Assembly: GCA_902384935.1 (NCBI GenBank) | Contig: CABMDO010000009.1 | Location: 74,983-138,982 of the forward strand | Length of the DNA: 64,000 nt | Origin: Candidatus Norongarragalina meridionalis | GTDB taxonomy: Archaea; Micrarchaeota; Micrarchaeia; Norongarragalinales; Norongarragalinaceae | Direction: 5' to 3' | Shown here: piece by piece, positions 3,175 through 62,270 of the stretch | Numbering within the stretch: the first letter of the stretch is position 1 | Layout of the letters: the number at the start of each line of letters is the position of its first letter | Program-made: the position numbers and the translations under genes | Notes under the pieces: model-generated | The model's database searches: none | What the model saw: the letters and a program-made list of their open reading frames with translations, nothing else | Told to the model about the DNA's origin: nothing

Positions 3175-3743
3175 GAATCGGGATACTCGGCGGTTCGTTC
3201 AACCCTCCGCACGACGGGCACGTCGCCGCTGCTAAGGCAGTTCTGCGAGCACGTCTTGTGGACGAGGTGTGGGTGATGCCGTGCTGGAGGCAGGCTGGAA
3301 AGAAGCTCGCTCCGTTCAGAACGAGGATGGAGATGGCGCGCATCGCGTTCGGCGGCATAAGAGGCGTCCGAGTCAGCGATTTCGAAGAGAAATACAACAG
3401 AACCGGAAAAACCATCGAGACGATTCGGGCATTAAAACGCAGTTATCCGCGCACTGCTTTCTCGTGGATTATCGGCTCGGATTTGCTGAATTCGCTGAAT
3501 TCCTGGGACGAGGCTGCGGCGCTGAAGAAAAGCCTGGATTTCGTCGTCGTGAAGCGCGGAAAGATGCCCGCGAAAAAACTGGCTGCGAATTTTGTCGTGT
3601 TGGATGCGAAAACTCCCGATGTGTCGAGCACCGAGATAAGGAGAAAACTCGCTAAGGCAGGTCGCGGGGCTCGCGTCCGGGGCGTATCGGCAGGTGTTTT
3701 ATCCCGCTGGTTAGGCTTCGCGAACGGGAAACGCGCCTCATGA
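3171..3743 (+). CDS. nadD: nicotinate-nucleotide adenylyltransferase, bacterial NadD type
   Basis: GGSFNPPHDGH nucleotidyltransferase motif and the SSTEIR motif near the C-terminus. The 3' end overlaps the convergent HD-GYP gene by ~90 nt. Confidence 0.75.
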   Translation: MRIGILGGSFNPPHDGHVAAAKAVLRARLVDEVWVMPCWRQAGKKLAPFRTRMEMARIAFGGIRGVRVSDFEEKYNRTGKTIETIRALKRSYPRTAFSWIIGSDLLNSLNSWDEAAALKKSLDFVVVKRGKMPAKKLAANFVVLDAKTPDVSSTEIRRKLAKAGRGARVRGVSAGVLSRWLGFANGKRAS

Positions 3744-4509
3744 AAAGATTGTTTTCTTCGCGCACGAGTTTTAAGAGCGCCTCGGTTACGCGCGGGTCGT
3801 AGCCGTGCGCGCCGTTTTTGGAAAGCAAATCGTCCATCTGTTCGCGGAGAGAGCGCCTTTTGATGTATCCGCCAGCCTTGCCTACCTGCCGCGTCCACAT
3901 CGCATGAAGAGAATCGGCGACCGCGAGAATTCGCGCGCCGAGCGGCGGGTGCTCGATTTCGTCGAAACCATGCGGATAGCCTTTCGGATAATGGTGGAAC
4001 AGAACTCCGTCGATGATTTGGGGTGGAAGCCCGGAATGGTACAGTTCCTTTGCAGACAGCGCCGCGTGCTTCTCCTTGGCGCGAATCAATTGCTCCTTGT
4101 CTTCCCGGTCTTCCCAATTTCCGGCATTATTGAGGAAAAGTTCCCGCATCTCCTCGGTGGAAACCTTGCCTATGTCGTGGATCCTGCCCATCGCGTACGC
4201 CCACGCGCCGCTATCGGCGGACAACAGCATAAGTTCCTCCGCGTCCTTTCCCTTGAAAAGCGATGGATTGTCGCGCTGCATCTCCGCAAGCTTGCAGGCG
4301 ATGCGCGCGGAAAGCGCCGCGACTCCCGTGGAGTGCCCATACTCGAGATGGTCGGGCGGGATACGGCGAAGTTGTTCCTGAATGCGTTCGGGAACGGACA
4401 GCTCGAATATGTCCTCCAAACCAGCCATGCCCTTGGCGCTGAAAACGCGAGTCAGAAGCGCGTGATCCCTGCGAGGGGAACCGCTCCTGCGCTCCCTGCG
4501 GAACTGCAT
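3652..4509 (-). CDS. HD-GYP domain phosphohydrolase
   Basis: HD motif RIHDIGK plus FHHYPKGYPHGF (HH...GYP.G), matching the HD-GYP signature. An alternative start MAGLEDIF lies near 4428. Confidence 0.6.
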   Translation of the reverse strand: MQFRRERRSGSPRRDHALLTRVFSAKGMAGLEDIFELSVPERIQEQLRRIPPDHLEYGHSTGVAALSARIACKLAEMQRDNPSLFKGKDAEELMLLSADSGAWAYAMGRIHDIGKVSTEEMRELFLNNAGNWEDREDKEQLIRAKEKHAALSAKELYHSGLPPQIIDGVLFHHYPKGYPHGFDEIEHPPLGARILAVADSLHAMWTRQVGKAGGYIKRRSLREQMDDLLSKNGAHGYDPRVTEALLKLVREENNLFMRRVSRSRSLTSGIKHLPIRPGREPRDLP

Positions 4510-4908: not shown

Positions 4909-4909
4909 T

Positions 4910-5356
4910 TTACCGCCTCCTCTTTGCTTTCGACGGACGCGCCGCGGCGAAACCCGCCACGCCGCACGCCGCAGCTACGCCTACAAAGGCAATCATGAGC
5001 TGGAAAATCGCGTATTCCGCGGATGCGCCGGGAAGCGCGAGCGCGTTGAAGCGCGAGTATCCTATTTTCCCCAGAACCGCCGAGGAAATCGGGTGCGCAA
5101 TCACGCAGGCGAGCCCGCCGAACACCAGCGTCATTCCCGCCGAAAACAGCCCGAAGGTTATCGCGTCCCCGGAACGCTTCGCCTCGACGTAAGCGAGCGC
5201 GGCGAGAATCGCGACGACAACGGCGCCCTCCGCCGCGAGGAAATAAAGCGCGGTGCGTCCGTATCCCTCGGTATAAACCACGTAGAGCATGAGCAGCGAC
5301 GCGAACCAGCCCGCAGCCTGAACCATCGCCGAAGCGGCGAGAAGCTTGTTGTCCAT
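4910..5356 (-). CDS. membrane protein (4 TM), hypothetical
   Basis: 148 aa, strongly hydrophobic. First gene of a three-ORF membrane operon. Confidence 0.45.
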   Translation of the reverse strand: MDNKLLAASAMVQAAGWFASLLMLYVVYTEGYGRTALYFLAAEGAVVVAILAALAYVEAKRSGDAITFGLFSAGMTLVFGGLACVIAHPISSAVLGKIGYSRFNALALPGASAEYAIFQLMIAFVGVAAACGVAGFAAARPSKAKRRR

Positions 5357-5405: not shown

Positions 5406-5849
5406 ATGGAAAAAAGGCTATACCGTTCGAAGAAGGACAGGATTCTTGGCGGGGTGTGCGGCGGAATCGCGGAGTATTTCGAAGTGGACCCAACGCTCGT
5501 GCGGCTGCTCTGGGTGCTGTTCGTGCTCGCAGGCGGCGCGGGAGTAATCGCGTACATAATCGCGTGGATAATAATGCCGCCGAATCCGAAGCAGAAAGGA
5601 GTCGACGAGGACTTCTCGCGCGCCGCGGAACGCCTCGGAAAAAGGATGGAACGCAGGAAAGAACGCGAAGAAGACGGCAAACACGGCCTGCTGATAGGCG
5701 GAATCATAGTTCTCGGCATCGGGCTCGTGTTTCTCGCGTCTAACTACGGCTGGTTCCCGGGATGGTGGAGCTGGGACAAGATGTGGCCGGTTATGCTGAT
5801 ACTCGTGGGCGTCGGGCTGCTTGCCGGATGGGTGGCGAAGCGTGACTAA
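5406..5849 (+). CDS. PspC domain protein
   Basis: N-terminal RSKKDRILGGVCGGIAEYFEVDPTLVRL is the canonical PspC domain. Followed by TM segments. Confidence 0.75.
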   Translation: MEKRLYRSKKDRILGGVCGGIAEYFEVDPTLVRLLWVLFVLAGGAGVIAYIIAWIIMPPNPKQKGVDEDFSRAAERLGKRMERRKEREEDGKHGLLIGGIIVLGIGLVFLASNYGWFPGWWSWDKMWPVMLILVGVGLLAGWVAKRD

Positions 5850-5862
5850 AATTACCAAAAGC

Positions 5863-6048
5863 ATGACGCTCGGCGACGTGGTGTCGCGCTATCCGAACGC
5901 CACGGGAGTTATGCTCAAACACGGCCTGCACTGCGCGGGCTGCCCCGGCGCAATGATGGAAACAGTCGAGATGGGCGCGGTTGCGCACGGCATGACCGCG
6001 GCGCAGCTGGCGAAGATGCTCAGGGAAATGAACGACGCCGAGAAGTGA
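5863..6048 (+). CDS. DUF1858 / hybrid-cluster-protein-associated redox disulfide domain protein
   Basis: MTLGDVVSRYPNATGVMLKHGLHCAGCPG matches the small CxxC DUF1858 family. Confidence 0.55.
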   Translation: MTLGDVVSRYPNATGVMLKHGLHCAGCPGAMMETVEMGAVAHGMTAAQLAKMLREMNDAEK

Positions 6049-6087: not shown

Positions 6088-7803
6088 ATGGCAGCGCGCA
6101 TCAAATACGGCGGAAGCAGCCAGCGTGATCGCAGACTTATACGATACGGCGTTGATCTCGGCAGAAAGATAGCCGTGCGAAGGTTAATCGAACCGTCGCC
6201 AGCGCACATACTTTCGCTGGACTCGCAGGGAAGGATAATCGCCGCTTCCAAAAAGGCGGCGGAGCTTTTCGGCAGGGACTCCGCCAAACAACTCGAGGGT
6301 TTGCATTACACCGAACTTTTCCCGCACAGCCGCGACGAGCTTCTCACCGAGAGACACATCGGCGACAAGGACGGCTCCTCCACGAACTCGCTTCTCGTGA
6401 AGCGCAATTCCCCAGAAGGGCTCGTCGAATCGTACGTCCGAGTGAAACGGAACGGAAACGTTTTCAATTTGGCGTTAACCGACGTGGCGGACATGGTGAA
6501 GAGGAACCAGCTAATCACGGACATTTTCGGAATAAACAGGAAGATTAACACGGAAACGGATCTCGGCAAGGTCTTCGACGCCATAGCCCAGCATGCGGCG
6601 ACACACTTCGGGGTGCGCGCGGTTGTTACGAGATTCGACGGGGAAAAACTTGTCCCGTACGCCACGGCGGGGCCTGAGGAAACCGGAACCGGACCGATTC
6701 GGCTTTCCGACTTGGTGAAGAAGGGGCCGATACCGCTCGGCGAGGGAGTGATGGGCAGGGCTGCCGCGGAAGGAAAAACCGCCCGCGTCGAAGACGCCGA
6801 CGGCTACACCGGCGCCATCTTCCCGGGGATAGAAGACGAATACAATCTCGGCAATTCCGTCGGGGTGCCCCTGTTCGCCTATAACGGCGGCGGAAAGCGC
6901 ATACTCGTAGGTGTCATAGGGCTGTTCAAGGAAGTCGGCCAGGAAAAATTCCACGATTACCAGCTCGACCTCATGGACCACATAGCGGACAACGCGGCGA
7001 TAAAGATACGCAACGCCCAGCTGAACAAGAAGCTCGAGGAGATGGCTTACACCAACCCCGTCACGGGACTTTCCAACAGGAGGCGCTTCTTCGAGGAGCT
7101 GTCCAAGCATCTGGGCGTGGAGAGCATGGATACTGACGCGGCGAAACTGACGGAAAGAATCGGCACGGCGGGCATTCAACCGTTCACCGTCGTAAAGTTC
7201 GACGTGACGAACCTGCACGGCGCAAACGAGATAATCGGACACGACGCGGCGGACGTCCTGCTGAGGGACGTAATGGGCAAAACGCTGAGCAGCGTTTTCG
7301 GGCGGATGGGGCTCGGCAGGAAGGACGCGGTTTTGGCGCACGTCTACGGGGATGAATTCAACCTTTTGTTAAGAAATGCCGACGCGCACGTTGCCGAGGA
7401 ATTCGGAAAAACCGTGCGTGACGAGGTGGAAAGGCGCATATCCGAACAGTATCCAAAACTGAAGGATGCAGGAGTGGGAATCGACTACGCTCAAACAACT
7501 TACAATTACGCTGGCGCGAAGAACACCCCGAATGCGGTCAATCTCCTGCGATTCAAGCAACTGATAAGCGCGTACTCCAGAAAGGGCAGGCTGAAAACCA
7601 TCGGGCTCAGCGCGGGAGACGTCGTCGACATCTTGCTCAGGTATCCGGAGATACCGCTCGGAAAGGGAAAAGCGGAACGGAAAACCGCAGGCGGATGGTG
7701 GCCGCCGGGGGCTGCCCAGGAACTCGTCCGGCTCATCACGGAAGGCAAGTCTTCCAAGAACGCCATAGAAGAAATCGTAAAAAAATACCACATCAGGCGC
7801 TAG
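6088..7803 (+). CDS. PAS-GAF-GGDEF domain signalling protein with degenerate YGDEF motif
   Basis: The C-terminal ~170 aa match GGDEF: NPVTGLSNRRRFFEEL, FDVTNLHGANEIIGHDAADVLLRDV, VYGDEFNLLL, GVGIDYA. N-terminal PAS-like and GAF-like regions. Confidence 0.65.
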   Translation: MAARIKYGGSSQRDRRLIRYGVDLGRKIAVRRLIEPSPAHILSLDSQGRIIAASKKAAELFGRDSAKQLEGLHYTELFPHSRDELLTERHIGDKDGSSTNSLLVKRNSPEGLVESYVRVKRNGNVFNLALTDVADMVKRNQLITDIFGINRKINTETDLGKVFDAIAQHAATHFGVRAVVTRFDGEKLVPYATAGPEETGTGPIRLSDLVKKGPIPLGEGVMGRAAAEGKTARVEDADGYTGAIFPGIEDEYNLGNSVGVPLFAYNGGGKRILVGVIGLFKEVGQEKFHDYQLDLMDHIADNAAIKIRNAQLNKKLEEMAYTNPVTGLSNRRRFFEELSKHLGVESMDTDAAKLTERIGTAGIQPFTVVKFDVTNLHGANEIIGHDAADVLLRDVMGKTLSSVFGRMGLGRKDAVLAHVYGDEFNLLLRNADAHVAEEFGKTVRDEVERRISEQYPKLKDAGVGIDYAQTTYNYAGAKNTPNAVNLLRFKQLISAYSRKGRLKTIGLSAGDVVDILLRYPEIPLGKGKAERKTAGGWWPPGAAQELVRLITEGKSSKNAIEEIVKKYHIRR

Positions 7804-8270
7804 TGCACCGCCCTGTCGGCACTGACTTTTCGTTTGACTTTCCACGTCTCAACGAGTGAAACCCATTCCGCGCCTATATGCTTGAACGCCTCGCCGAATT
7901 TCGTAGAAAGCGTCAGCCGCATGCCGTGGCGCTTGTCCTTGTCGTCCTGTCCAGTCGGGTTTTCCCTCTCGCGGGAAAGCAATCCGACGCGCACGAGCTT
8001 CGGAATAACGAGGTTACGGAGCGTGGAATTCGGAATCTTGTGCTCCGCCTGCCACGCCGCAATTGCGTCGCCGTCCGCCTCCCCTTTCTCGGAAAGGAAG
8101 CGGATGAATTTGCATGCTATCTCGTACTGCGCAGCTTGCGCCTGTGGCGGGAATATCAGCTTCAGGACGTCTTCGGCTTCCCAGCGGGCGCTAACCGGCA
8201 TCGGGAGCGCCGAATACTCGAACCACAGCGACTTTTTCGACGGAATTCCACGAGAGGCGGGTTCAGGCAT
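7800..8270 (-). CDS. hypothetical protein, probable winged-helix
   Basis: Protein-like C-terminal 156 aa starting at MPEPASRG. The upstream part of the listed 264-aa ORF runs through a repeat-rich non-coding region and is probably not translated. Confidence 0.4.
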   Translation of the reverse strand: MPEPASRGIPSKKSLWFEYSALPMPVSARWEAEDVLKLIFPPQAQAAQYEIACKFIRFLSEKGEADGDAIAAWQAEHKIPNSTLRNLVIPKLVRVGLLSRERENPTGQDDKDKRHGMRLTLSTKFGEAFKHIGAEWVSLVETWKVKRKVSADRAVH

Positions 8271-9900
8271 GAACACATCATTATGGTGTAATATAAAAAG
8301 TTTGATGGGCGCGCCTTCCAGTGCTGGGTTGCGGTATAACGCAGGAAAGGAGGCGGCGCTTCTGGGAGATAATAAGTTCATACTTGTAAGAACCAAAATA
8401 GCCGAATAGGCAGGAAAACGGGCGAAAAACGGGAATACTGCCTCGTTCAGAAGGCTCCGGATGCCAAGGAATCGTACTTTTTTGAAAGAATAGGCAGGTT
8501 CTAGGTATTTTCGCAGGAAATAGGCATGTTTTTTGCAGGGCGTTCTGGAAAGCCCTGCTGAAACCGAGCGGAAAAGCACACTTCCGTTATTCATATCATA
8601 ATGGTGTGCGGTAACTAAAAATATGGCAAAAAAGCATGGTTGAAAGCGGTGCCGCTAAACGCGCACTCATAAAAAACGCGCTAAATAGCATTACGGTGTG
8701 TTGTGTTTTCGCTGAAAACGCCTTCAAAACAGCGCAGCGGTGTCACGCGATGCCGAAAATGCCTCTAAAGCGATACTTTCGGCACAAAGCAGGGCTTACC
8801 CCGGCTCAAGTGGCGCATTTTAGTGGCTGAATAACGCTACAATGTAACATAGGCATGTTGAGGCACTTGAGGACACCCCATTACGTTACACCATAAGGGA
8901 ATTTTGAAAAAGAGGTTTTATCATAATGGTATTTTTGGTTTGGAGTGATTTCGCAGCGTAAAAAAGGGGCGGTTTTCTCGAGGGTAATGGCCGCCTTGGA
9001 TCGACGTCGTTTCTTACGGGAATAACGGTGGCGCCAGGGCCTGCTTTTTCTGCTTTTTTCTGCTCAGCCGGCAGTTCATACCTGTAAGAACTTATAGCCG
9101 CCTTTGGCGCAAATCCTTCCAGTACGCAGGAAGCCGACGGTCGTTTTTGGCTATCAGGAAGCGCACGGCATCATCCACGCTCACGAAACGCTTCATTTTC
9201 ATCTGGAGCTCCCCAGCCAGGAGCGCCAAACGCTCGTACGTATCCTTTTTCACTCTTATAACGTTCGTCATGCGATTTACCTCGGTAACTTTGTTACTTT
9301 AGTATTCCAAAAATACTATGTTACACGCTATTTTTAACCTTTTCGGCTGGTGGGAATAGCGGAAGCGGGCTGGGTTCCTGCTCGGTGGTTGAAAACCTGG
9401 CTACAGCCGACGGAGCTGGCTGTAGAGGGGGCTAAAAATTGCTAAAAATCCTGCAGGAAACCCAGAAAGCTGCCTATTCCGGCCAAAAACAAGGAAACCG
9501 CACGCATAGGGAAGGGATGCCGGAAAGTACGCGGAGGATCGCCTGCGAGACAAAAACCACTCCGTGCCTAAAAAACCGCACTTTTTCTCAAAAAATGCCT
9601 ATTCTGAGCCAAAAACATTGCATTTTCGTGAAAAACATGGCAGAACAGGACACCCAGACGAAAACCTGCCTATAACGGCTATGGAAACGCGAGTGAAACC
9701 GCCAAAATCACTGCGGAAACGCCAAAAACTGCCCAATCTCTCGCAAAAAACGCGATTTTCGGCGATTTTCTGCGTTTTATGGAAAAACCGCGTGCTTCCA
9801 GGCTCAGGGCTAGAGTTTCCGCCCGTTCGAGAGAGGCCGCTATAAAAGCGGAAACGAGTTTCAAGCCAAAAAGATGCCCCTTGGCTGAAACCTGCCTAGT
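8270..9900. repeat. repeat-dense, largely non-coding island with iteron-like motifs
   Basis: AATAGGCAG at least 3 times on + (8.40-8.53 kb) and its complement CTGCCTAT/CTGCCTAG 4 times (9.47-9.89 kb). (C)ATAATGGTGT 4 times in both orientations. Periodic (G/C)AAAAAC and GGAAACG motifs in 9.44-9.86 kb. Confidence 0.5.
9093..9272 (-). CDS. small ribbon-helix-helix (CopG/antitoxin-like) DNA-binding protein
   Basis: 59-aa ORF MTNVIRVKKDTYERLALLAGELQMKMKRFVSVDDAVRFLIAKN. An AT-rich upstream region carries palindromes GTAACTTTGTTAC and TAGTATT..AATACTA. Confidence 0.45.
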
Positions 9901-10383
9901 CCTTGCGTCAAAAGCCTGTTTTGTCTCGGTAAAATCGTAATCGAGAAGTGGTATCAAACGCAGCGCCATAGAGGTAACGAAGGCGATTTGAGAGGGCACG
10001 CGAGCTGCGCGCATGGAGTGTGCGATGTCGGACGGCATCGTCGTAAGAAGAACGATCTTGGAGGCGTATAAAAGCGCGAGCAGCCGCAAAACGATTATGC
10101 AGCCGTTGGCAAAACCTGCCCACATGCCGTACGGCCAGAACAAAACCTGGAGCGTTACGAGAAAAACCGCGAGCAGGAAAAACCATTTTCCGGGACGCAG
10201 CGCCCTCGTAAGAGGCTCGTAAGAGGCTGAAAATGCGAGTATCTCCGCCAGAATCACAAGCGCAAGCACAAACAGGTTGGTCGTGGCGAAGGCAGCCAGG
10301 GAAACGAGCAGCGCGGCGGCAAGTTTCGCCAGCGCGTTCACCCCGTGCATCGGGCTTTTCCTTTGGGAATACCTGAAAATCAA
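9679..10383 (-). CDS. ecfT: ECF transporter transmembrane T component (CbiQ family)
   Basis: 234-aa polytopic membrane protein with the EcfT/CbiQ profile. Sits in an operon with two ABC ATPases. Confidence 0.7.
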   Translation of the reverse strand: MIFRYSQRKSPMHGVNALAKLAAALLVSLAAFATTNLFVLALVILAEILAFSASYEPLTRALRPGKWFFLLAVFLVTLQVLFWPYGMWAGFANGCIIVLRLLALLYASKIVLLTTMPSDIAHSMRAARVPSQIAFVTSMALRLIPLLDYDFTETKQAFDARTRQVSAKGHLFGLKLVSAFIAASLERAETLALSLEARGFSIKRRKSPKIAFFARDWAVFGVSAVILAVSLAFP

Positions 10384-10973
10384 GTCCGTTCACTTTTTCG
10401 CGCTATACCGCAACCGCCGATTATTTTACCTCTATGGAGCCGCATGTTTTTTGCCGCAAAAGAAACCGGGTTGTGCGTCAGGAGGATAACCGAGGGAACG
10501 CGGCGCAACGCCTTTGCAATCGCCTGCCTGCCGAACAAGTCCTGGGAAGCGAACGGTTCGTCGGCTATCAAAAGCGCCGGCTCGGAAGCAAGCGCGCAGC
10601 AGAACGCCAGCCTTTTGCGTTCGCCGTAGGACAACGTTGCACAATCGCGCCGCGGGTCCAGAAGCATGCTTTCAAGCGCCCGCTTCGCCGCGGCGGTTGA
10701 AACGGCGCCCAACCCCACCTCCTCGCGGACTGTTTCCTCGAAAAGCTGATGATTGGGGTTCTGGAAGACGTAGGTGGTGCTGCTCGGAACGCGGACTGCT
10801 CCCGCGGTGGGTTTGAGGATGCCCGCCATTATTTTGCCAAGCGTGGTTTTGCCGCAGCCGTTGTCTCCGTAGACGGCGGCTATGCCTCTGCCCAGCCTGA
10901 ATGAAGCACCAGACAGCACCTCGCGATCGTCGTAGGAGAAGCGCACATCGTCAATGGAAATCTCATAATTCAT
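10380..10973 (-). CDS. ecfA: ECF transporter ATPase component
   Basis: Walker A GDNGCGKTT, ABC signature LSYGERKRL, Walker B LLIADEP. Confidence 0.8.
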   Translation of the reverse strand: MNYEISIDDVRFSYDDREVLSGASFRLGRGIAAVYGDNGCGKTTLGKIMAGILKPTAGAVRVPSSTTYVFQNPNHQLFEETVREEVGLGAVSTAAAKRALESMLLDPRRDCATLSYGERKRLAFCCALASEPALLIADEPFASQDLFGRQAIAKALRRVPSVILLTHNPVSFAAKNMRLHRGKIIGGCGIARKSERT

Positions 10974-11676
10974 TAGGGGAAATCACGCCCAAGGAATGAA
11001 GCATGCTATGGTTGCTGAGGATGCGCTTTCCTTCCGTCGCAATTCTCCCGTTTTTCAGAAAGACGACGTCGTCAGCCAACTCCTCCAGCAACTTCGTATT
11101 CTGCTCCGCGCAGACAACGGTTTTCCCGCGCTTTTTCAGCCGCGCCAAAGCCCCATACAAGTCCCTTACGCCTCTTGAATCCAGGAAAGCCGAGGGTTCG
11201 TCGAGGATGAGAATCGGAGGCTCGGCTGCAAGAATCGAGGAAAGAAGCAGGCGCTGTATTTCCCCGCCCGACAGTTCGTTGGTTAGGCGGTCGCGAAGAG
11301 GAAGCACGCCCATCATTCTCATGGCGCGAACGGCGTTGCGCTTGGGCATTCCCAGATTGTCGGTGACGAACGCCGCCTCCTCTTCGGCGGTTACGGAAAC
11401 TATCTGCGCTTCCGCATCCTGAAAAAGAACGCCGACGGAACGGGCGAGTTCGTTCAGCGGCGGCAGGGGCTTGCCGTCAAGCAGAACCGCGCCGCCAACC
11501 TGCGCATCGATCGCTTGCGGGATTACTCCCGACAACGCAAGAGCCAGCGTGCTTTTGCCGGAACCGTTGGCGCCGCATAAGCCGAGAAACGAGCCGGAAG
11601 GGATACGCAGAGTAATGCCGCGCAGGGCGCGCCTGCCGTCGGCGTAGGTTACCGAAAGTCCTTCGCATTCGAGCAT
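10963..11676 (-). CDS. ecfA: ECF transporter ATPase component
   Basis: Walker A GANGSGKST, signature LSGGEIQRL, Walker B ILILDEPSAFLD. Confidence 0.8.
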   Translation of the reverse strand: MLECEGLSVTYADGRRALRGITLRIPSGSFLGLCGANGSGKSTLALALSGVIPQAIDAQVGGAVLLDGKPLPPLNELARSVGVLFQDAEAQIVSVTAEEEAAFVTDNLGMPKRNAVRAMRMMGVLPLRDRLTNELSGGEIQRLLLSSILAAEPPILILDEPSAFLDSRGVRDLYGALARLKKRGKTVVCAEQNTKLLEELADDVVFLKNGRIATEGKRILSNHSMLHSLGVISPNEL

Positions 11677-12204
11677 TTACTTCTCCCTGAAGCGCTTGAG
11701 CCGCGAAAACAGGAGCCACGCCGCGCCGATTTCGACGACTCCGAGCACCGCGTTCAGCAGGATTATCTGCGGCACGAGCGGCGTTATCATCGACGCGGGC
11801 CAGCCCGTGAACAGCGGAATCACGTAAAGGTTCAGGCTCGCCATCGCGACGGAACGGAAAATAATCGCGGGAATGGAAATAGCGGAAACAAAGGCGACGT
11901 CGTCCGGTTTTTTACGAAGCAGGGTGAGCCCCGCGAATACGATCAGCAGCATCGGGTACGTCGCCGCGAATTTCATGAACCCTCCGAGCCATCCCGAAGA
12001 GGAGAAGAACGCGAGGAGCAGCGAAGAGGATACGGAAACGAGCGTGGCGCACCGCAAGCCGTAAAGGAACAGCGCGAGCACCCAGAGCGCTCCCATGAAA
12101 TCCAGCTGCATTCCCCACGGAACCCGGAAGAAGGGCAGGAAGTTCGCGAGGAACGAAAGCGCCGTCAGCACCGCGGAGACAGCGAGGAGTTTTGATTCGC
12201 GCAT
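11677..12204 (-). CDS. ECF transporter substrate-specific S component (possibly riboflavin, RibU-like)
   Basis: 175-aa, ~6-TM small membrane protein at the head of the ecfAA'T operon and next to the riboflavin regulator RbkR. Confidence 0.5.
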   Translation of the reverse strand: MRESKLLAVSAVLTALSFLANFLPFFRVPWGMQLDFMGALWVLALFLYGLRCATLVSVSSSLLLAFFSSSGWLGGFMKFAATYPMLLIVFAGLTLLRKKPDDVAFVSAISIPAIIFRSVAMASLNLYVIPLFTGWPASMITPLVPQIILLNAVLGVVEIGAAWLLFSRLKRFREK

Positions 12205-12256: not shown

Positions 12257-12868
12257 CTACTTATTTTCGAGTAACTGTACGGAAACGTCGCTTCCGTTCC
12301 TGAGGCGGAGCGAGCGGCGGAGGCGAACTGGAGCGATAATCTCGAGCACGTTGTTGCCGTAGTGCGTCCGTTCGGGAAGAACGATTGCGCCGCGGGACTT
12401 GCCTCCCACCAGGCACGGCAGGAGCGCGACGCCGCCGCACTGCACTCCGCGCGTTTCGAACGGAGGAATGCGTATCCCGCCCGAAAGCGAGTGCGGAACC
12501 TCGAGCTTGATGTTGAGCGTGCCCAGATACGGCTCGTATCCGAGCAAAGAGCGTATGCGCGGCGCGTAAAGCGGCATGAACCGCGCGCCGTCGCGGAATC
12601 CCGAGAAAACGACGCCGCGGAACTCCCTGCGCGACGACGGCTTCACCGCGTAGCGCGTAAGGGTCCGCAATCCGGAAGCGGTGATGGACAGTCCCTGGCG
12701 CCCGCGCTTCAGCTGCCCGTCCTTCTCGAGCTCGCGCACCCAGCGGGACACTGTTTGTTGCGACGCGCGCACGCGCTCCGCTATCGCGGTTGTGCTCGCG
12801 CGGACAGGCGCGGCTGCCGCGCCGTTCTCCGCGAGAAATAGAAGCACGTCGAGCGGCGAGGGCTTCAC
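12257..12868 (-). CDS. RbkR: winged-helix regulator fused to archaeal CTP-dependent riboflavin kinase
   Basis: HTH part (AERVRASQQTVSRWVRELEKDGQLKR) then MJ0056-type riboflavin kinase (GTLNIKLE, GIRIPPFETRG, PERTHYGNNVLEIIAP). Probable GTG start at 12868. The remaining 5' part of the listed 420-aa ORF is an Arg-rich run-on. Confidence 0.7.
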   Translation of the reverse strand: MKPSPLDVLLFLAENGAAAAPVRASTTAIAERVRASQQTVSRWVRELEKDGQLKRGRQGLSITASGLRTLTRYAVKPSSRREFRGVVFSGFRDGARFMPLYAPRIRSLLGYEPYLGTLNIKLEVPHSLSGGIRIPPFETRGVQCGGVALLPCLVGGKSRGAIVLPERTHYGNNVLEIIAPVRLRRSLRLRNGSDVSVQLLENK

Positions 12869-12895
12869 GAGGGAATTAGGAATAGGGTTAATAAG

Positions 12896-13288
12896 TTGTT
12901 TCGCCGCCGTATTCTCATGGACGCTTTTGCCGAAAAAATGAGCAAAATAGCATCGGTGCCGACCTACAACGCGATATTCGTGAGGGAACTCGCGAGAACC
13001 ATGCCCGCGGATCTGCGCGGGCCCGCGGAGAAATATTTCCAAAAGATGATTGCCAACACGAACAGCTATCTGCGGGTCGAACACATAACCGGCGCGCTTA
13101 GGAAAAACATCACATCGGAGCCGAATTACCTGAAGCGCAGGGCGCACTCCATGATGCTCGAACATATCGAAGGCATGCCAGGCTTCCAAAGGAATGTCGA
13201 ACTCGTTGTCAGGGGCAGCGTCGCGCGCGTTCGCGCGGGGTCGGAAAAGCCGGTGCGCAGGGTCCTGGGGCTCCGCGGAAGGGCATAA
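12896..13288 (+). CDS. hypothetical protein
   Basis: 130-aa ORF with balanced, protein-like composition. Probable start MDAFAEK at 12917. No recognised domain. Confidence 0.35.
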   Translation: MFRRRILMDAFAEKMSKIASVPTYNAIFVRELARTMPADLRGPAEKYFQKMIANTNSYLRVEHITGALRKNITSEPNYLKRRAHSMMLEHIEGMPGFQRNVELVVRGSVARVRAGSEKPVRRVLGLRGRA

Positions 13289-13303
13289 TCTTATTTTCCC
13301 GCT

Positions 13304-15979
13304 TTGCGTATTCTTCGCATGCCGCAGCTGCGCCCGGAAATAGCGCGCCTCGCGAAGGCGAAGGGCATTTCCGAGGAAACGGAGATTCAGAAGAAGGCGA
13401 TTCCGCTCATACTGGAGGGCAGGGACGTGCTCTGCGTCGCGCCGACTGGTTTCGGCAAGACGGAAGCCGCGGTGCTGCCCATTCTTTCGAAACTTCTTGA
13501 CGAACACGATGCCGGACACAAGGAGGGCATCCAGGCGCTTTACATCACGCCGCTGAAGGCGCTCAACCGCGACATGATAGAGCGGCTAACGTTCTTCTGC
13601 CACATGCTGGGCGTGCGCATCGCGGTGAGGCACGGCGACACGCCCTCTTCCGAACGCGCGAAGCAACGGGACAATCCGCCGCAGTTCCTCGTCACGACGC
13701 CCGAGACGCTGCAATCGTTGCTAGTGGCGCCGAAGCTTTGCGAGTCGCTCGTCAACGTCCGTTTCGTCGTTGTCGATGAAGTGCATGAGCTCGTGGAAAG
13801 CGAGCGCGGTTTGCAGCTCTCAATCGGGATGGAGAGATTGCGCGTCAAGGCGCCTTCGTTGCAGGTCATCGGATTAAGCGCTACGGTCGGGAGCAAGGAG
13901 GAAGTCGCGCGCTTTTTGTCGCCGAAATGCGTCGTCGTCGAAAGCGGGCTCGGGCGCGAACTGCACGTAACAGTTGAGAGCCCAGTGAAAGCGAAGGGTT
14001 TCGAGGAACTCGCGTTGAGTGTCGAGAGCAGGGCGCGACTTGAACGCGTCAAGGAACTGATAGAGACGCACCGCAGGACGCTGGTTTTCGTCAACACGCG
14101 GTACCACGCGGAATCGCTCGGCTCGCTGCTCGTGGACGCGCTCGCTGAAGGCGAAGCAGCGGTTCACCATTCGTCGCTCTCGAAGGAAGCGCGCGTCGAG
14201 ACGGAGAAGGAATTCAAGGATTCCGCGGGAAAGATACGCGGCGTGGTGTGCACGAGTTCGCTCGAATTGGGAATCGACATCGGCGAAATCGATTTGGTGG
14301 TGCAGTTCGTTTCGCCGCGGCAGGCTACCCGGCTGCTGCAGCGCGTCGGGCGCAGCGGGCATCGGAAGCACCTGATACCGAAGGGCATCGTAATCGCGGG
14401 TGACGCGCTCGACTGCATCGAAGCGGGCGTCGTCGCGCGCCGAGCGAAGAAGGGATTGCTCGAACGCGAGGGAATACGCAGGAACGCGCTCGACGTCGTC
14501 GGGCACCAAATCGCGGGCTTATGCCTCGATTTCGGGAAGATGCAGGCGGCGAAGGCATACGAAATAATCACGAAGGCGATGCCGTTCAGCTCGCTCGACT
14601 ACGATGCGTTTCTGGACGTGGTGCGCAGGACTTCGGAAGCAGGCATCATTCTTTTCGACGGACACGAGATTGCTGCTTCTCGGCGCACGCGGCTTTACTA
14701 CTACGAAAACGTTTCCACAATCCGCGACAAGAAACGGTACTTCGTCAAGGACGCGAACACGCGCAAGAACGTCGGCGTGCTCGACGAGGAATTCGTGAGC
14801 GAGTATCTTCGCGAGGGCGTCTCCTTCATCGCGCGCGGCAGGGCGTGGCGGGTTATGGCGGTAGGCGAGAAAGAGCTGGTGGTTGAGCCCACCCGCGATA
14901 TAGCGGCGGCGATTCCCGAATGGGCGGGCGAGGAAATACCCGTCGCTCCGGAGGTCGCGCAGGACGTTTCGAAGGTTTTCTCAGGCGCGGAGTTGCCGGA
15001 TTTGGACGCGGACGCGCGCAAGAAAGTAACGGCGTACGTCGAGGAGCAGAAGAAATTCTTCGTTCCCGCACCGGACGCCATTCACGTCGAAATGCGCGGC
15101 GAACTGTGCGTGATACACTGCTTCGCCGGCAACAAGGCGAACGAGGCGCTCGGGCGGCTGCTGGCAGCGGTTCTTTCGCACGGTGGAGGAAGCGCGCGCG
15201 TGAAGGCAAGCGCCTACGGCGTCGAGTTGGAGTTCGGGAAGCGCCCGGAACCGTCCCGTATAAAGGCGGCGCTCGATGATCTGAAGACGAAGGACCTTGC
15301 GAAGATTCTGGAAAAAATCATTCCGAACACGCAGCTTTTCCGTTTCAAGTTCGGCGGGGTTGCGAAGGCGTTCGGCATAATCTCGAAAAAGGCGGAGTGG
15401 AGGGATTTCTCGTTAAAGCGGCTGGCTGAAACAGAAAAGGGTTCCCCTGTTTGGAGGGAAGCGCTCGAAGAAGTGCTGTGGGACAACGCATCCGCATCCG
15501 ACGCGCAGGAAGTTTTGCGTAAATCGTCAATCGTGCTGCTCAACGAAAGGGATGCCTGGTCCCCTCTTGCTAAGGAGTTCTTCGAGCTGGGTTCGTTCGG
15601 GGATTTGATTACGCCCGCGGACGCGGCGGGCTCGAAGGTTCTGGAAGGGTTCAAGGAAACGCTGATGGCGAAACGCGCGCATCTGGAATGCGGGTTCTGC
15701 AAGCGCACGTTCTGGCGCTCGCTGAAGGACGCCGAGGAGAAAATAGTGTGCCCGTACTGCGGCTCCAACCAGGTGATGATTGAGGGGCAAAAGAAGACGA
15801 TGGCAGTAGTCGCTCACTACGGACGCCGCGGGTTGCTCGCGCTGAGCACGTTCGGCGTCGGGCCGGATACGGCGGCGCGCGTGCTTCGGAAGCAGCACGA
15901 GAGCGAGGAGGCGTTGCTGCTCGATCTTCTCGAAGCGCAGCGGAACTTCATCAGGACAAGGCAATACTGGCGGATTTAA
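13304..15979 (+). CDS. lhr: Lhr-family DEAD/DEAH-box ATP-dependent helicase with C-terminal zinc ribbon
   Basis: Walker A APTGFGKTE and DEAH box VVVDEVHEL, helicase C motifs, then a long Lhr-type C-terminal extension ending in CGFCKRTF...CPYCGS. Confidence 0.8.
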   Translation: MRILRMPQLRPEIARLAKAKGISEETEIQKKAIPLILEGRDVLCVAPTGFGKTEAAVLPILSKLLDEHDAGHKEGIQALYITPLKALNRDMIERLTFFCHMLGVRIAVRHGDTPSSERAKQRDNPPQFLVTTPETLQSLLVAPKLCESLVNVRFVVVDEVHELVESERGLQLSIGMERLRVKAPSLQVIGLSATVGSKEEVARFLSPKCVVVESGLGRELHVTVESPVKAKGFEELALSVESRARLERVKELIETHRRTLVFVNTRYHAESLGSLLVDALAEGEAAVHHSSLSKEARVETEKEFKDSAGKIRGVVCTSSLELGIDIGEIDLVVQFVSPRQATRLLQRVGRSGHRKHLIPKGIVIAGDALDCIEAGVVARRAKKGLLEREGIRRNALDVVGHQIAGLCLDFGKMQAAKAYEIITKAMPFSSLDYDAFLDVVRRTSEAGIILFDGHEIAASRRTRLYYYENVSTIRDKKRYFVKDANTRKNVGVLDEEFVSEYLREGVSFIARGRAWRVMAVGEKELVVEPTRDIAAAIPEWAGEEIPVAPEVAQDVSKVFSGAELPDLDADARKKVTAYVEEQKKFFVPAPDAIHVEMRGELCVIHCFAGNKANEALGRLLAAVLSHGGGSARVKASAYGVELEFGKRPEPSRIKAALDDLKTKDLAKILEKIIPNTQLFRFKFGGVAKAFGIISKKAEWRDFSLKRLAETEKGSPVWREALEEVLWDNASASDAQEVLRKSSIVLLNERDAWSPLAKEFFELGSFGDLITPADAAGSKVLEGFKETLMAKRAHLECGFCKRTFWRSLKDAEEKIVCPYCGSNQVMIEGQKKTMAVVAHYGRRGLLALSTFGVGPDTAARVLRKQHESEEALLLDLLEAQRNFIRTRQYWRI

Positions 15980-20286: not shown

Positions 20287-20295
20287 TGGAAACCC

Positions 20296-20538: not shown

Positions 20539-20587
20539 GTGGCACCACCAAAACGGTTTAAAGAGCACGGGCAATATAACCTTTTTC

Positions 20588-20995: not shown

Positions 20996-21003
20996 TATAG
21001 GAT

Positions 21004-62240: not shown

Positions 62241-62270
62241 TCATATTTTAATAGCGGAAGCGTTCTTTCT

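What the first reader, a model, noticed from the sequence alone, without database searches (positions are those of the whole stretch)
6088..7803. PAS-GAF-GGDEF protein with degenerate YGDEF motif in an archaeal genome
The C-terminus matches the diguanylate-cyclase fold block by block (D-x-LTGL-x-NRR-x-F, the Mg/GTP-binding region, VYGDEF in place of RYGGEEF, and the terminal GxGIDYA). GGDEF domains are very rare in archaea. The altered A-site suggests a receptor, a non-canonical cyclase, or a horizontally acquired bacterial sensor.
Basis: partly seen in the sequence, partly recalled or inferred. Interest (0 to 1): 0.6.

Follow-up and report, generated by a model that had tools for sequence, protein, structure and literature searches.

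The report
Archaeal PAS-GAF-GGDEF protein with YGDEF motif
A tiny symbiotic-type archaeon (Micrarchaeota) really does carry its own, vertically inherited version of the bacterial "GGDEF" enzyme that makes the signalling molecule c-di-GMP, which makes testable the open question of whether any archaeon uses this kind of signalling.

Summary
ORF 6088-7803 (+) encodes a 571-aa PAS-GAF-GGDEF protein whose signature reads AHVYGDEF. The contig is archaeal: it carries archaeal RNase P RNA, Nre and ThiN. The protein is identical to one annotated "Diguanylate cyclase" in Candidatus Norongarragalina meridionalis.

- **Not a recent bacterial import:** GC and codon usage are native. An exhaustive search of 1.84 billion representatives finds only five clusters sharing its architecture, two lineage-specific insertions and a C-terminal tail. 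Three are named Micrarchaeota or lie on clearly archaeal contigs.
- **Active site:** two relatives keep canonical ARxGGDEF, so Y/H-for-G, coupled with R-to-H, is derived. Metal, general-base, guanine and phosphate residues are kept. The RxxD I-site is absent.
- **Neighbourhood:** an HD-GYP-like hydrolase gene lies 1.6 kb upstream. Both genes evolve 3-8 times faster than their neighbours.

Most likely it is a signal-gated dinucleotide cyclase with altered or weakened activity (about 0.45). A GTP-binding pseudoenzyme is nearly as likely (about 0.35). It is a new variant of a known kind, of moderate interest.

The parts
6088..7803 (+). Complete gene for the 571-aa PAS-GAF-GGDEF protein (stop codon at 7801-7803)
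   Evidence: ORF list. 100% identical to VVB67141.1 of Ca. Norongarragalina meridionalis.
6175..6465 (+). PAS domain (residues 30-126)
   Evidence: Pfam PAS 28.7 bits and PAS_9 27.0 bits. TIGR00229 25.6 bits against a cut-off of 22.9.
6559..7008 (+). GAF domain (residues 158-307)
   Evidence: Pfam GAF 40.1 bits, E=6.4e-10, covering profile positions 1-133 of 133. It is one of the better-conserved parts compared with the CG08 ortholog (52% identity, second to the 127-157 linker at 65%).
7009..7050 (+). Linker (signalling) helix joining GAF to GGDEF (residues 308-321)
   Evidence: AlphaFold model 2 shows a helix at segment residues 2-11 that leads into the NPVTGLSNRR turn. It aligns with the stalk helices of WspR-GCN4 and DgcB in the PDB matches.
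7051..7494 (+). GGDEF core (residues 322-469), from alpha1 to the strand GVGIDYA. It includes a lineage-specific extra helix at about residues 351-359. Key residues are D372 (Mg), N380 and D389 (guanine), H418 (in place of Arg) and Y420-G-D422-E423-F424.
7345..7359 (+). YGDEF motif (residues 420-424)
   Evidence: Translation. Among 270 non-family GGDEF domains this position is Gly in 249 and never Tyr.
7495..7641 (+). Family-specific insertion (residues 470-518) between the S-x-G strand and helix alpha4
   Evidence: The insertion is absent from 23 bacterial GGDEF domains in alignment A5. It is modelled confidently as a short strand plus two helices. A profile of the C-terminal region alone finds only family members.
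7642..7695 (+). Canonical GGDEF helix alpha4 (residues 519-536). E521, K528 and K532 correspond to the 'AD..MY.AK..GR' motif (PleD K442 and R446).
   Evidence: MAFFT aligns these columns, and K528 is at least 90% conserved across 28 sequences. E521, K528 and K532 are invariant in the five family members. The model has a helix at segment residues 212-225.
7696..7800 (+). C-terminal two-helix tail (residues 537-571), starting with the family motif G-[WY]-x-P-P
   Evidence: The tail is shared by all five family clusters only. The model has helices at segment residues 231-242 and 248-257, with pLDDT of about 93-96.
5821..6048 (+). DUF1858 (CxxC redox-disulfide-type) small protein gene, 39 nt upstream on the same strand
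   Evidence: Pfam DUF1858, 61 bits. Same position in the CG08 Micrarchaeota contig. 82% aa identity.
5406..5849 (+). PspC / LiaI-LiaF-like membrane protein gene, first gene of the same-strand run
   Evidence: Pfam PspC, 98.8 bits. Syntenic in CG08. A TATA-like TTTTTAAA lies 22-29 nt upstream of its ATG (inference).
3652..4509 (-). HD-GYP-like metal-dependent phosphohydrolase gene (motifs HDIGK, HH, GYP). Candidate partner hydrolase.
   Evidence: Pfam HD 39.3 bits; HD_5 24.4 bits, below its cut-off of 27.2. The best NCBIfam hit is an HD-GYP c-di-GMP phosphodiesterase family, E=6e-8. hhalign to the HD-GYP domain of bacterial P0158 gives 96.7% probability, E=3.7e-10. Syntenic in CG08.

Best explanation
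The gene encodes a soluble cytoplasmic sensor enzyme. PAS and GAF input domains feed through a continuous linker helix into a structurally complete GGDEF nucleotide-cyclase domain. It belongs to a very small family native to Micrarchaeota-type archaea. This family descends from a canonical diguanylate cyclase and has acquired two insertions and a helical C-terminal tail.

I think it most likely still works as a signal-gated, dimer-dependent purine-nucleotide cyclase. Two protomers would each bind GTP-Mg, and the two GGDEF domains would be brought antiparallel by the linker helices to make c-di-GMP. In this model:
- D372 and D422 hold the metal.
- N380 and D389 read the guanine.
- K528, K532 and the backbone after D372 hold the phosphates.
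- E423 acts as general base across the dimer.

Because of the coupled Arg-to-His (418) and Gly-to-Tyr (420) changes, I expect lowered or differently regulated activity. Because the I-site is missing, I expect no product feedback. The HD-GYP-like protein encoded 1.6 kb upstream is the candidate degrading enzyme.

Shown here: the domain architecture, the fold, the residue inventory, the family distribution, the native composition and the fast evolution. Inferred: substrate binding, dimerisation, catalysis, the product and the partnership with the HD protein.
For: - **Catalytic side chains are kept:** D372, N380, H385, D389, G421, D422, E423, F424, E521, K528 and K532 are present. Their roles are as described for PleD in PMC7288161 and for the general base in PMC6456294.
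- **Selection on the active site:** against the CG08 ortholog, 11 of 14 active-site positions are identical while the background identity is 44% (P=0.009).
- **Canonical relatives:** two family members keep ARxGGDEF and the Lys equivalent to PleD K332, so the family descends from a canonical-looking cyclase.
- **First position tolerates change:** natural AGDEF and SGDEF enzymes are active, and an engineered HGDEF variant of VCA0965 still raised c-di-GMP (PMC3974145).
- **No other output:** there is no I-site (RKDA) and no other output domain, so the GGDEF domain is the only plausible output.
- **Recurrent pairing:** His at the Arg position goes with a non-Gly residue at the first motif position in 6 of 7 other GGDEF domains carrying that His. 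Only 15 of the other 263 domains have a non-Gly residue there. This suggests an alternative hairpin configuration rather than random decay.
- **Possible partner:** the HD-GYP-like neighbour is conserved in synteny.
Against: - In the only saturation test of the first motif position (VCA0965), only A, G, H and M kept activity, so Tyr did not (PMC3974145).
- The Arg replaced by His418 is conserved in 262 of 270 domains. The Lys replaced by His377 is conserved in 253 of 270.
- TIGR00254 scores below its trusted cut-off.
- The gene evolves about 3-8 times faster at non-synonymous sites than its syntenic neighbours: dN 0.48 against 0.06-0.24. This could reflect relaxed constraint.
- c-di-GMP has never been detected in an archaeon, and no archaeal effector is known (PMC10249747).
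- No c-di-GMP riboswitch is present in the window at Rfam gathering thresholds. Effector proteins such as PilZ were not searched for.
- The HD-GYP-like gene is not linked to the family members on the other three loci.
Confidence: 0.45

Rival explanations
1. Pseudoenzyme. The GGDEF domain still binds GTP (or another nucleotide) at the former active site but no longer catalyses cyclisation. The protein would act as a nucleotide- and ligand-sensing scaffold that signals through protein-protein contacts, for example through the family-specific insertion and C-terminal tail.
For: - Tyr is never seen at the first motif position in 270 GGDEF domains. Arg-to-His and Lys-to-His changes are also present.
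- Tyr was not among the active first-position substitutions in VCA0965.
- Non-synonymous change is fast.
- The conserved, confidently folded extra elements (insertion 470-518 and tail 537-571) could be interaction surfaces.
- Degenerate GGDEF domains that bind GTP or act as scaffolds are known in bacteria (PMC7288161, PMC3974145).
- No c-di-GMP has been found in archaea.
Against: Every side chain needed for chemistry, not only for binding, is retained across 44-46% sequence divergence. This includes the general base E423 and both metal ligands. The insertion and tail are also present in family members with a canonical RxGGDEF motif, so they do not go with loss of catalysis. No partner or second output domain has been identified.
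Confidence: 0.35
2. Cyclase with a different product. The family makes a cyclic dinucleotide other than c-di-GMP (3',3'-cGAMP, c-di-AMP or another purine dinucleotide), by analogy with Hypr GGDEF enzymes.
For: Four of the five family clusters have Asn at the Watson-Crick-face specificity position (PleD D344), and all have GDEF rather than GEEF. In 270 other domains that position is Asp in 265, Asn in 4 and Ser in 1. In Hypr enzymes a Ser or Thr at this position, always together with GGDEF, gives cGAMP (PMC6456294). The positions that differ between the window protein and its ortholog are exactly the equivalents of K332, D344 and G368.
Against: The window protein itself has the canonical Asp (D389) and Asn380, which predicts GTP specificity. 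No data exist on Asn at this position. For this protein the idea applies to its relatives rather than to it.
Confidence: 0.1
3. Artefact or recent import. The gene is bacterial contamination of the metagenome-assembled genome, or a recently transferred bacterial gene with no role in the archaeon.
For: GGDEF and HD-GYP genes in archaeal MAGs have been suspected of being contamination (PMC5847659 and preprint 10.1101/2021.11.05.467447). The domain family is overwhelmingly bacterial.
Against: - The gene sits inside a 64-kb window with archaeal RNase P RNA, Nre, ThiN, GAN-like and DnaG-like genes, on a 187-kb contig.
- GC, GC3 and codon usage are indistinguishable from neighbouring genes.
- A positional ortholog lies in the same gene order in an independent Micrarchaeota MAG.
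- More distant relatives sit next to archaeal Nre, histone and mevalonate-pathway genes, or in another Micrarchaeota MAG.
- No bacterial protein shares the insertion or the tail.
Confidence: 0.03

Closest known systems
Bacterial sensor diguanylate cyclases with a coiled-coil-linked GGDEF domain (PleD, WspR, GcbC, DgcB, PadC and GAF-GGDEF proteins)
   Different: The window protein has Tyr for the first Gly, His for the conserved Arg two residues upstream, and His for the PleD K332 Lys. It has no RxxD inhibitory site. It has an extra helix after alpha1, a roughly 45-residue insertion before alpha4 and a 35-residue helical tail. Core identity is at most about 30%. The host is archaeal.
Active non-canonical first-position diguanylate cyclases: VCA0965 (AGDEF) and ECA3270 (SGDEF)
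   Same: The first motif position is not Gly while G-D-E-F is intact. In VCA0965 an engineered HGDEF variant, the motif of relatives P0002 and P0010, still raised c-di-GMP (PMC3974145).
   Different: Tyr was not among the tolerated residues there. Nothing in what was read suggests that those enzymes also carry the coupled Arg-to-His change seen here.
Hypr GGDEF cGAMP synthases (GacA)
   Same: They are GGDEF-fold enzymes whose product is set by the residue at the PleD D344 position, always with GGDEF rather than GGEEF (PMC6456294). Most of the archaeal family is non-Asp (Asn) at this position and has GDEF.
Previously noted archaeal GGDEF proteins: Methanocella arvoryzae CAJ37382 (REC-PAS-PocR-GGDEF-HD-GYP) and REC plus inactivated GGDEF in Ca. 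Micrarchaeum acidiphilum
   Same: They are GGDEF domains in archaeal genomes, and the second case is also in Micrarchaeota (PMC5847659 and preprint 10.1101/2021.11.05.467447).
   Different: Their architectures differ (REC-based, or fused to HD-GYP). Their authenticity outside the one complete genome was left open. Their sequences could not be retrieved here, so their relationship to this family was not tested.
HD-GYP c-di-GMP phosphodiesterases (for the neighbouring gene 3652-4509)
   Same: The HDIGK, HH and GYP motifs and the C-terminal 'ARI.AVAD...AM ... DPR' region align to a bacterial HD-GYP domain at 96.7% hhalign probability.
   Different: The HHE..DG.GYP loop is shortened to HHYPKGYP, without the Glu and Asp. 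Pfam HD_5 is below threshold. No significant PDB sequence match was found.

Membership tests
GGDEF domain (Pfam PF00990 / diguanylate-cyclase fold) | Profile score above the curated threshold | tested here: met
   Pfam scores 37.9 bits against a cut-off of 23.8, E=2e-9, although only profile positions 2-109 of 161 are matched. The five-member family profile scores E=6e-19 against PDB diguanylate cyclases. The stricter TIGR00254 model scores 32.2, below its cut-off of 37.4.
GGDEF domain (Pfam PF00990 / diguanylate-cyclase fold) | Palm-like GGDEF fold including C-terminal helix alpha4 | tested here: met
Catalytically competent diguanylate cyclase | Signature (G/A/S)G(D/E)EF on the beta2-beta3 hairpin | tested here: not met
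   The motif is Y-G-D-E-F. Tyr occurs in 0 of 270 comparison domains. In VCA0965 only A, G, H and M were tolerated at this position (PMC3974145).
Catalytically competent diguanylate cyclase | Two acidic metal ligands and the general-base Glu (PleD D327, E370, E371) | tested here: met
   D372, D422 and E423 are present and invariant in all five family clusters.
Catalytically competent diguanylate cyclase | Guanine-binding Asn and Asp (PleD N335, D344) | tested here: met
   N380 and D389 are present in the window protein. The Asp is Asn in the other four clusters.
Catalytically competent diguanylate cyclase | Phosphate-binding basic residues on alpha4 (PleD K442, R446) | tested here: met
   K528 and K532 are present. 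K528 is at least 90% conserved in A5. At the R446-equivalent position, Lys occurs in 78 and Arg in 102 of 270 domains.
Catalytically competent diguanylate cyclase | Conserved Arg two residues before the motif (PleD R366) and Lys after beta1 (PleD K332) | tested here: not met
   The window protein has H418 and H377. In the comparison set, Arg occurs in 262 of 270 domains and Lys in 253 of 270.
Catalytically competent diguanylate cyclase | Makes c-di-GMP from GTP as a homodimer | not testable with these tools
   This needs an enzyme assay or LC-MS.
I-site c-di-GMP-binding degenerate GGDEF receptors (PelD / PopA type) | RxxD motif five residues upstream of the GGDEF motif | tested here: not met
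   The sequence is R411-K-D-A414. The Asp position is Ala here, and the motif is also absent in the ortholog (IIDG).
Hypr GGDEF (cGAMP synthase) | Ser or Thr at the PleD D344 position | tested here: not met
   The window protein has D389. Its relatives have Asn, not Ser or Thr.
HD-GYP phosphodiesterase (neighbour gene 3652-4509) | HD_5 (PF13487) profile above threshold, and HD / HHE..DG.GYP motifs | tested here: inconclusive
   HD_5 scores 24.4, below its cut-off of 27.2. HD, HH and GYP are conserved in both orthologs, but the loop is shortened. hhalign to an HD-GYP domain gives 96.7% probability. No significant PDB sequence hit was found.

The most novel reading that the evidence does not exclude
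Micrarchaeota (DPANN archaea) possess a native, vertically inherited cyclic-dinucleotide signalling module. It would consist of a lineage-specific PAS-GAF-GGDEF cyclase family and, in at least two genomes, an adjacent HD-GYP-like hydrolase. Both genes evolve unusually fast. This would be the first GGDEF-type second-messenger pathway shown to belong to an archaeal lineage. Because most members carry Asn at the base-specificity position, the product may not be c-di-GMP.
Probability: 0.3. Interest if true: 0.8.

Novelty: new variant of a known kind. Interest (0 to 1): 0.55.

Why it matters
Reviews state that GGDEF, EAL and HD-GYP signalling is essentially confined to bacteria. They also state that c-di-GMP has never been detected in an archaeon, and that GGDEF and HD-GYP genes in archaeal MAGs may be contamination (PMC10249747, PMC5847659, PMC10086821 and preprint 10.1101/2021.11.05.467447).

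This locus gives contig-level evidence that one such gene is genuinely archaeal. The gene belongs to a small family with its own structural additions, and that family still contains canonical-motif members. This provides concrete constructs (the window protein, P0002, P0010, P0013 and P0025) with which to test directly whether any archaeal lineage makes a GGDEF-derived dinucleotide.

The recurrent Arg-to-His plus Gly-to-X pairing also offers a natural experiment on how much variation the GGDEF hairpin tolerates.

If the protein proves inactive, the result is still useful. It would be a documented case of a bacterial-type signalling enzyme retained as a pseudoenzyme in a reduced archaeal genome.

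Tried and rejected
- **Word-indexed homology searches** found only P0002 as a close relative and missed P0010, P0013 and P0025. Those appeared only in the exhaustive representative search.
- **The search for related loci with the five-member alignment** failed because no stretch was conserved enough. With A1 on genome contigs it recovered only the CG08 Micrarchaeota MAG and a weak GAF hit in an Asgard MAG. With A7 on metagenome contigs (pattern AH[VI][HY]GDEF) it found only CG08-type contigs.
- **The afdb50 fold library** was unavailable.
- **The first AlphaFold model** (8-sequence alignment) was poor in the C-terminal 100 residues, with pLDDT 33-55. It was superseded by model 2.
- **My first manual guess for alpha4** ('LLRFKQLISAYSRKGR' as the 'LL..AD.ALY.AK..GR' helix) was rejected. 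Residues 519-536 were adopted after the family alignment and model 2.
- **PDB sequence searches for the HD protein** gave nothing significant.
- **The sigma-70 promoter and terminator scan** was uninformative for an archaeon.
- **PHROGs** gave only generic GGDEF-type families of unknown function.
- **Rfam** found no riboswitch or other RNA near the gene.
- **The two papers on Ca. Norongarragalina** do not mention GGDEF or c-di-GMP.
- **No bacterial donor lineage** could be identified. The closest non-family domains are about 28-30% identical in the core and taxonomically mixed or unnamed.
Full report
**1. The observation**

The window contains an ATG-initiated ORF at 6088-7803 (+) encoding 571 residues.

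Pfam assigns three domains:
- PAS at residues 30-94 (28.7 bits; PAS_9 extends to residue 126).
- GAF at residues 158-307 (40.1 bits).
- GGDEF at residues 321-449 (37.9 bits, E=2e-9, gathering score 23.8).

The GGDEF match stops at profile position 109 of 161. The stricter NCBIfam GGDEF model scores below its cut-off (32.2 against 37.4). The best PDB sequence match is the Thermotoga GGDEF domain 4urs.

Translation of 7336-7365 gives AHVYGDEFNL. All alignments place Tyr420 at the first Gly of GG(D/E)EF. They place His418 at the conserved Arg two residues upstream.

The window is archaeal:
- It holds an archaeal RNase P RNA at 61967-62235 (121 bits).
- It encodes archaeal Nre, a DnaG-like Toprim protein, a DHH-CID (GAN/RecJ-like) protein, ThiN and a CTP-dependent riboflavin kinase.

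The protein is identical to NCBI VVB67141.1, annotated 'Diguanylate cyclase, GGDEF domain', from Candidatus Norongarragalina meridionalis. That organism is a Micrarchaeota (DPANN) MAG, and the gene is on a 187-kb contig.

**2. Is it a real and complete GGDEF domain?**

A first AlphaFold model from eight sequences was confident only for the N-terminal 165 residues of the segment. Its Foldseek hits were all GGDEF domains.

The Pfam match is truncated because the domain is interrupted. After the strand GVGIDYA there is a roughly 45-residue insertion (470-518), modelled as a short strand and two helices. The canonical helix alpha4 follows at residues 519-536.

MAFFT aligns 'PEIPLGKGKAERK' with the canonical 'AD..MY.AK..GR'. 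The spacing E521-K528-K532 (7 residues, then 4) equals the canonical D-K-R spacing. These three residues are invariant in the family.

A second, smaller insertion (a helix at about 351-359) follows alpha1. A two-helix tail (537-571) follows alpha4.

**3. The family and its distribution**

I made a profile of residues 310-571 and its ortholog and ran an exhaustive HMMER search against 1.84 billion cluster representatives. It gave 3449 GGDEF hits at E of 0.001 or better, but only five proteins matched the whole profile, including the insertion and tail:

| Protein | Length | E-value | Source |
|---|---|---|---|
| Window protein | 571 aa | 6.3e-144 (built into the query profile) | Ca. Norongarragalina meridionalis |
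| P0002 | 561 aa, 45% identical | 1.4e-147 (also built into the query profile) | Micrarchaeota archaeon CG08_land |
| P0010 | 587 aa | 5e-19 | NCBI MEW5955674, 'Candidatus Micrarchaeota archaeon' |
| P0013 | 553 aa | 1e-13 | Unnamed metagenome contigs |
| P0025 | 548 aa | 5e-10 | Unnamed JGI metagenome contig (19 kb) |

Supporting evidence:
- P0025 lies on a 19-kb contig with archaeal Nre, a histone-fold protein and the archaeal thiolase/HMG-CoA synthase/DUF35 trio plus HMG-CoA reductase. Its Nre is 52% identical to the window's Nre.
- The P0010 contig carries an SHMT that is 60% identical to the window's.
- A profile of the C-terminal 117 residues alone, with E-values scaled to the whole library, picks out only family members. 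P0010 scores E=5e-4 with two seed sequences. With three seeds, P0013 scores E=8e-3 and P0025 scores 23 bits. The best unrelated protein scores 7.7 bits.
- On 166 canonical core columns (insertions and tail excluded), the five sequences form a clade in a neighbour-joining tree of 270 GGDEF domains. Bootstrap support is only 45% for the clade, and 99% for the window protein plus P0002.
- Scans of 185,579 species-representative genomes and of JGI metagenomes recovered only the CG08 lineage.

The family is therefore real, very rare, and so far seen only on archaeal contigs.

**4. Recent transfer or native gene?**

- Gene GC is 0.569 against a window GC of 0.573. GC3 is 0.715 against 0.707 ± 0.051 for reference genes. 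Codon-usage correlation with 20 Pfam-supported genes is 0.88, inside their own range.
- In the CG08 contig the gene occupies the same position, in the same gene order: NMNAT, HD (minus strand), two small membrane genes (minus strand), PspC, DUF1858, GGDEF, a 157-aa gene (minus strand), then CbiQ and ABC genes.
- No bacterial GGDEF domain exceeds about 30% core identity to the family, and within-family identity is 23-45%.

Contamination and recent horizontal transfer are therefore rejected. An ancient acquisition from bacteria remains likely in principle, because the superfamily is overwhelmingly bacterial. No donor can be named.

**5. Active-site inventory**

I used the residue roles described for PleD (PMC7288161; PMC7186502) and the general-base assignment from the Hypr structure paper (PMC6456294).

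| PleD residue | Role | Window protein | Rest of family | Comparison set |
|---|---|---|---|---|
| D327 | Metal ligand | D372 | Invariant | Asp in 262 |
| K332 | Follows beta1; backbone contacts phosphate | H377 | Asn in P0002, Lys in the other three | Lys in 253 |
| N335 | Guanine binding | N380 | Invariant | Asn in 269 |
| D344 | Guanine binding, specificity | D389 | Asn in all four relatives | Asp 265, Asn 4, Ser 1 |
| R366 | Substrate contact | H418 | His in P0002 and P0010, Arg in P0013 and P0025 | Arg in 262 |
| G368 | First motif position | Y420 | His in P0002 and P0010, Gly in P0013 and P0025 | Gly 249, Tyr 0 |
| G369, E370, E371, F372 | Motif; metal ligand and general base | G421, D422, E423, F424 | Invariant | Not applicable |
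| K442 | Phosphate binding | K528 | Invariant | Lys in 264 |
| R446 | Phosphate binding | K532 | Invariant | Arg 102, Lys 78 |

The inhibitory RxxD site is absent (RKDA).

Two points follow.
- The Y/H substitution is a derived state inside a family whose other members look like canonical cyclases.
- It is coupled. Every family member with a non-Gly residue has His in place of the Arg. In the comparison set, 6 of the 7 domains with His at that position also lack the first Gly, including 'VHSHGDEF' in a Candidatus Woesebacteria protein. Only 15 of the other 263 domains lack it.

This looks like a recurrent alternative hairpin configuration rather than random decay.

**6. What experiments on other proteins say**

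- Natural AGDEF (VCA0965) and SGDEF (ECA3270) enzymes are active.
- In a 19-residue scan of the first position of VCA0965, only Ala, Gly, His and Met kept activity. HGDEF and MGDEF raised c-di-GMP about 3-fold (PMC3974145).
- The His-bearing relatives therefore have a precedent for activity. Tyr does not.
- In Hypr GGDEF enzymes, the residue at the D344 position sets the product, and Ser or Thr at that position occurs only with GGDEF (PMC6456294).
- The family's Asn, always with GDEF, is suggestive of altered specificity. The window protein itself has the canonical Asp.

**7. Neighbourhood**

*Upstream, same strand.* A PspC/LiaF-like membrane protein gene (5406-5849) and a DUF1858 CxxC protein gene (5821-6048) precede the gene. 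TATA-like T/A runs lie about 22-31 nt upstream of the PspC and GGDEF start codons. This is an inference from reading the sequence only.

*Upstream, opposite strand (3652-4509).* This gene encodes an HD protein.
- It carries the motifs HDIGK, HH and GYP, all conserved in the CG08 ortholog.
- Its best NCBIfam match is an HD-GYP c-di-GMP phosphodiesterase family (E=6e-8).
- hhalign to the HD-GYP domain of bacterial P0158 gives 96.7% probability (E=3.7e-10, 33% identity over 125 columns).
- Pfam HD_5 is below threshold, and there is no significant PDB sequence match.

I call it HD-GYP-like, with membership unproven. It is not linked to the family members on the other three loci. Flanking housekeeping genes are also syntenic between the two genomes. 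Synteny alone therefore does not prove a functional link.

**8. Evolutionary rate (unexpected)**

The window and the CG08 contig are 74-82% identical in DNA across the flanks. The GGDEF gene gives only short 65-67% matches, and the HD gene gives none.

| Genes compared with CG08 | Protein identity | NG86 dN |
|---|---|---|
| Nine neighbouring genes | 67-90% | 0.06-0.24 |
| GGDEF gene | 46% | 0.48 |
| HD gene | 37% | 0.63 |

dN/dS is about 0.26-0.31 for the two fast genes, but dS is near saturation, so the ratio is unreliable.
- Divergence is spread over all domains, at 40-52% identity in the named domains (31% in the C-terminal tail, 21% in the N-terminal 29 residues, 65% in the 127-157 linker).
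- Even so, 11 of 14 active-site positions are identical (P=0.009 against the 44% background).
- The three positions that differ are the equivalents of K332, D344 and G368.
- More distant family members show the same pattern: 24-28% identity for the GGDEF protein against 52-60% for Nre and SHMT.

The two candidate turnover genes are thus the fastest-evolving genes of the block, while the catalytic core is preserved. This fits either relaxed constraint on a still-functional enzyme or diversifying selection on specificity. It does not fit simple pseudogenisation.

**9. Mechanism, committed**

*Shown:* the architecture, the fold, the residue inventory, the family distribution, the native composition and the evolutionary rates.

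*Inferred:* ligand or redox sensing by PAS/GAF; transmission through the continuous GAF-to-GGDEF helix in a parallel dimer; binding of GTP-Mg; and cyclisation across the dimer with E423 as base.

I put about 0.45 on a still-active, probably weak or specially regulated cyclase. Its product would most likely be c-di-GMP, given D389 and N380. It would lack product inhibition, and the HD-GYP-like protein would be the candidate hydrolase.

| Alternative | Probability |
|---|---|
| GTP-binding pseudoenzyme or scaffold that uses the insertion and tail as interaction surfaces | about 0.35 |
| Different dinucleotide product | about 0.10 |
| Contamination or recent transfer | about 0.03 |

**10. Comparison with what is known, and novelty**

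As a domain it is a member of the GGDEF superfamily, since the profile and fold tests are met. It fails the strict signature of active diguanylate cyclases (first Gly, R366, K332). It also fails the I-site test for classical degenerate receptors and the Ser/Thr test for Hypr enzymes.

The literature reports:
- Only one GGDEF protein in a complete archaeal genome, Methanocella arvoryzae CAJ37382.
- A REC plus inactivated GGDEF protein in Ca. Micrarchaeum acidiphilum.
- An explicit caveat that MAG-borne GGDEF and HD-GYP genes may be contamination (PMC5847659; preprint 10.1101/2021.11.05.467447).
- Römling's note that GGDEF genes 'need to be confirmed in archaeal contigs' (PMC10086821).
- No detection of c-di-GMP in any archaeon (PMC10249747).

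Neither paper on Ca. Norongarragalina mentions this gene. The only paper in the library that mentions both Micrarchaeota and diguanylate cyclases treats the enzymes generically for ultra-small prokaryotes (PMC9938205).

The automated annotation already labels the protein a diguanylate cyclase, so the domain call itself is not new. The new points are:
- The gene is demonstrably archaeal.
- It belongs to a lineage-specific family with structural additions.
- The family contains canonical-motif members.
- The His/Tyr hairpin change is coupled.
- The gene co-occurs with an HD-GYP-like gene, and both evolve fast.

I rate it a new variant of a known kind, with interest 0.55.

**11. Limits**

- Only 64 kb of the genome was available, so the presence of effectors or further turnover genes is unknown.
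- The structural model is a monomer, and its coordinates could not be inspected residue by residue.
- The comparison set of 270 domains is biased towards the nearest relatives of the query profile.
- The neighbour-joining support for the clade is weak on core columns alone.
- dS is saturated.
- P0013 lies on short contigs without taxonomic markers.

Noticed in passing
window 19807-22974: There is a cluster of ubiquitin-system-like genes. It contains a UQ_con (E2) protein at 19807-20286 (-), a JAB/MPN deubiquitinase-like protein at 21004-21468 (+) and a ThiF-family E1-like protein at 22216-22974 (-). Two unassigned ORFs lie between them (20509-21000 and 21461-22219). This looks like a eukaryote-like ubiquitylation operon in a DPANN archaeon.
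   Followed up: partly
window 3652-4509 (-): This HD-family protein has HD-GYP-like motifs (HDIGK, HHYPKGYP). hhalign to a bacterial HD-GYP domain gives 96.7% probability, but Pfam HD_5 is below threshold. It is the fastest-evolving gene of the syntenic block (37% aa identity to the CG08 ortholog, against 67-90% for neighbours).
   Followed up: partly
window 7800-8273 (-) (ORF listed as 7800-8594): This convergent downstream gene overlaps the GGDEF stop codon by 4 nt. Its last 156 residues are 90% identical to a 157-aa protein at the same position in the CG08 contig, so the real start is probably Met108 of the listed ORF. It has no Pfam, NCBIfam or PHROG match. Its C-terminal half reads like a winged helix-turn-helix by eye.
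   Followed up: partly
window 8274-9678: This is a gene-poor stretch with lower GC (0.495 for 8001-10000). It lies inside the block (window 7798-11987) that averages 77.5% DNA identity to the CG08 contig, and it contains only short ORFs. Rfam finds nothing significant even at E up to 1. It could hold small proteins or an undescribed RNA.
   Followed up: partly
window 4910-5356 (-): This 148-aa multi-pass membrane ORF is an insertion relative to the CG08 contig. The blastn alignments skip window 4909-5352, and CG08 has only about 50 nt there. It has no Pfam family.
   Followed up: partly
GGDEF domains in P0141 (Ca. Woesebacteria), P0058, P0018 (Euhalothece) and P0086: Across 270 unrelated GGDEF domains, His in place of the conserved Arg (PleD R366) is almost always accompanied by loss of the first Gly of the motif (6 of 7 cases, for example VHSHGDEF and AHWHGDKF). 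This is the same coupling as in the archaeal family, which suggests a recurrent alternative hairpin.
   Followed up: partly
window 12257-13519 (-): This gene fuses an N-terminal winged-HTH (MarR/Crp-like) domain to a CTP-dependent riboflavin kinase. It lies next to an ECF-type transporter operon (S component, two ABC ATPases and CbiQ at 9679-12204).
   Followed up: no
window 61967-62235 (+) and 62000-63922 (-): The archaeal RNase P RNA overlaps the 3' end of a 640-aa ORF on the opposite strand that has no Pfam match. That ORF, or its extent, may be spurious.
   Followed up: no
window 54386-55630 (+): A Mur-ligase-family protein (Mur_ligase_M and Mur_ligase_C domains) is encoded in this archaeal window. 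Its function was not examined.
   Followed up: no
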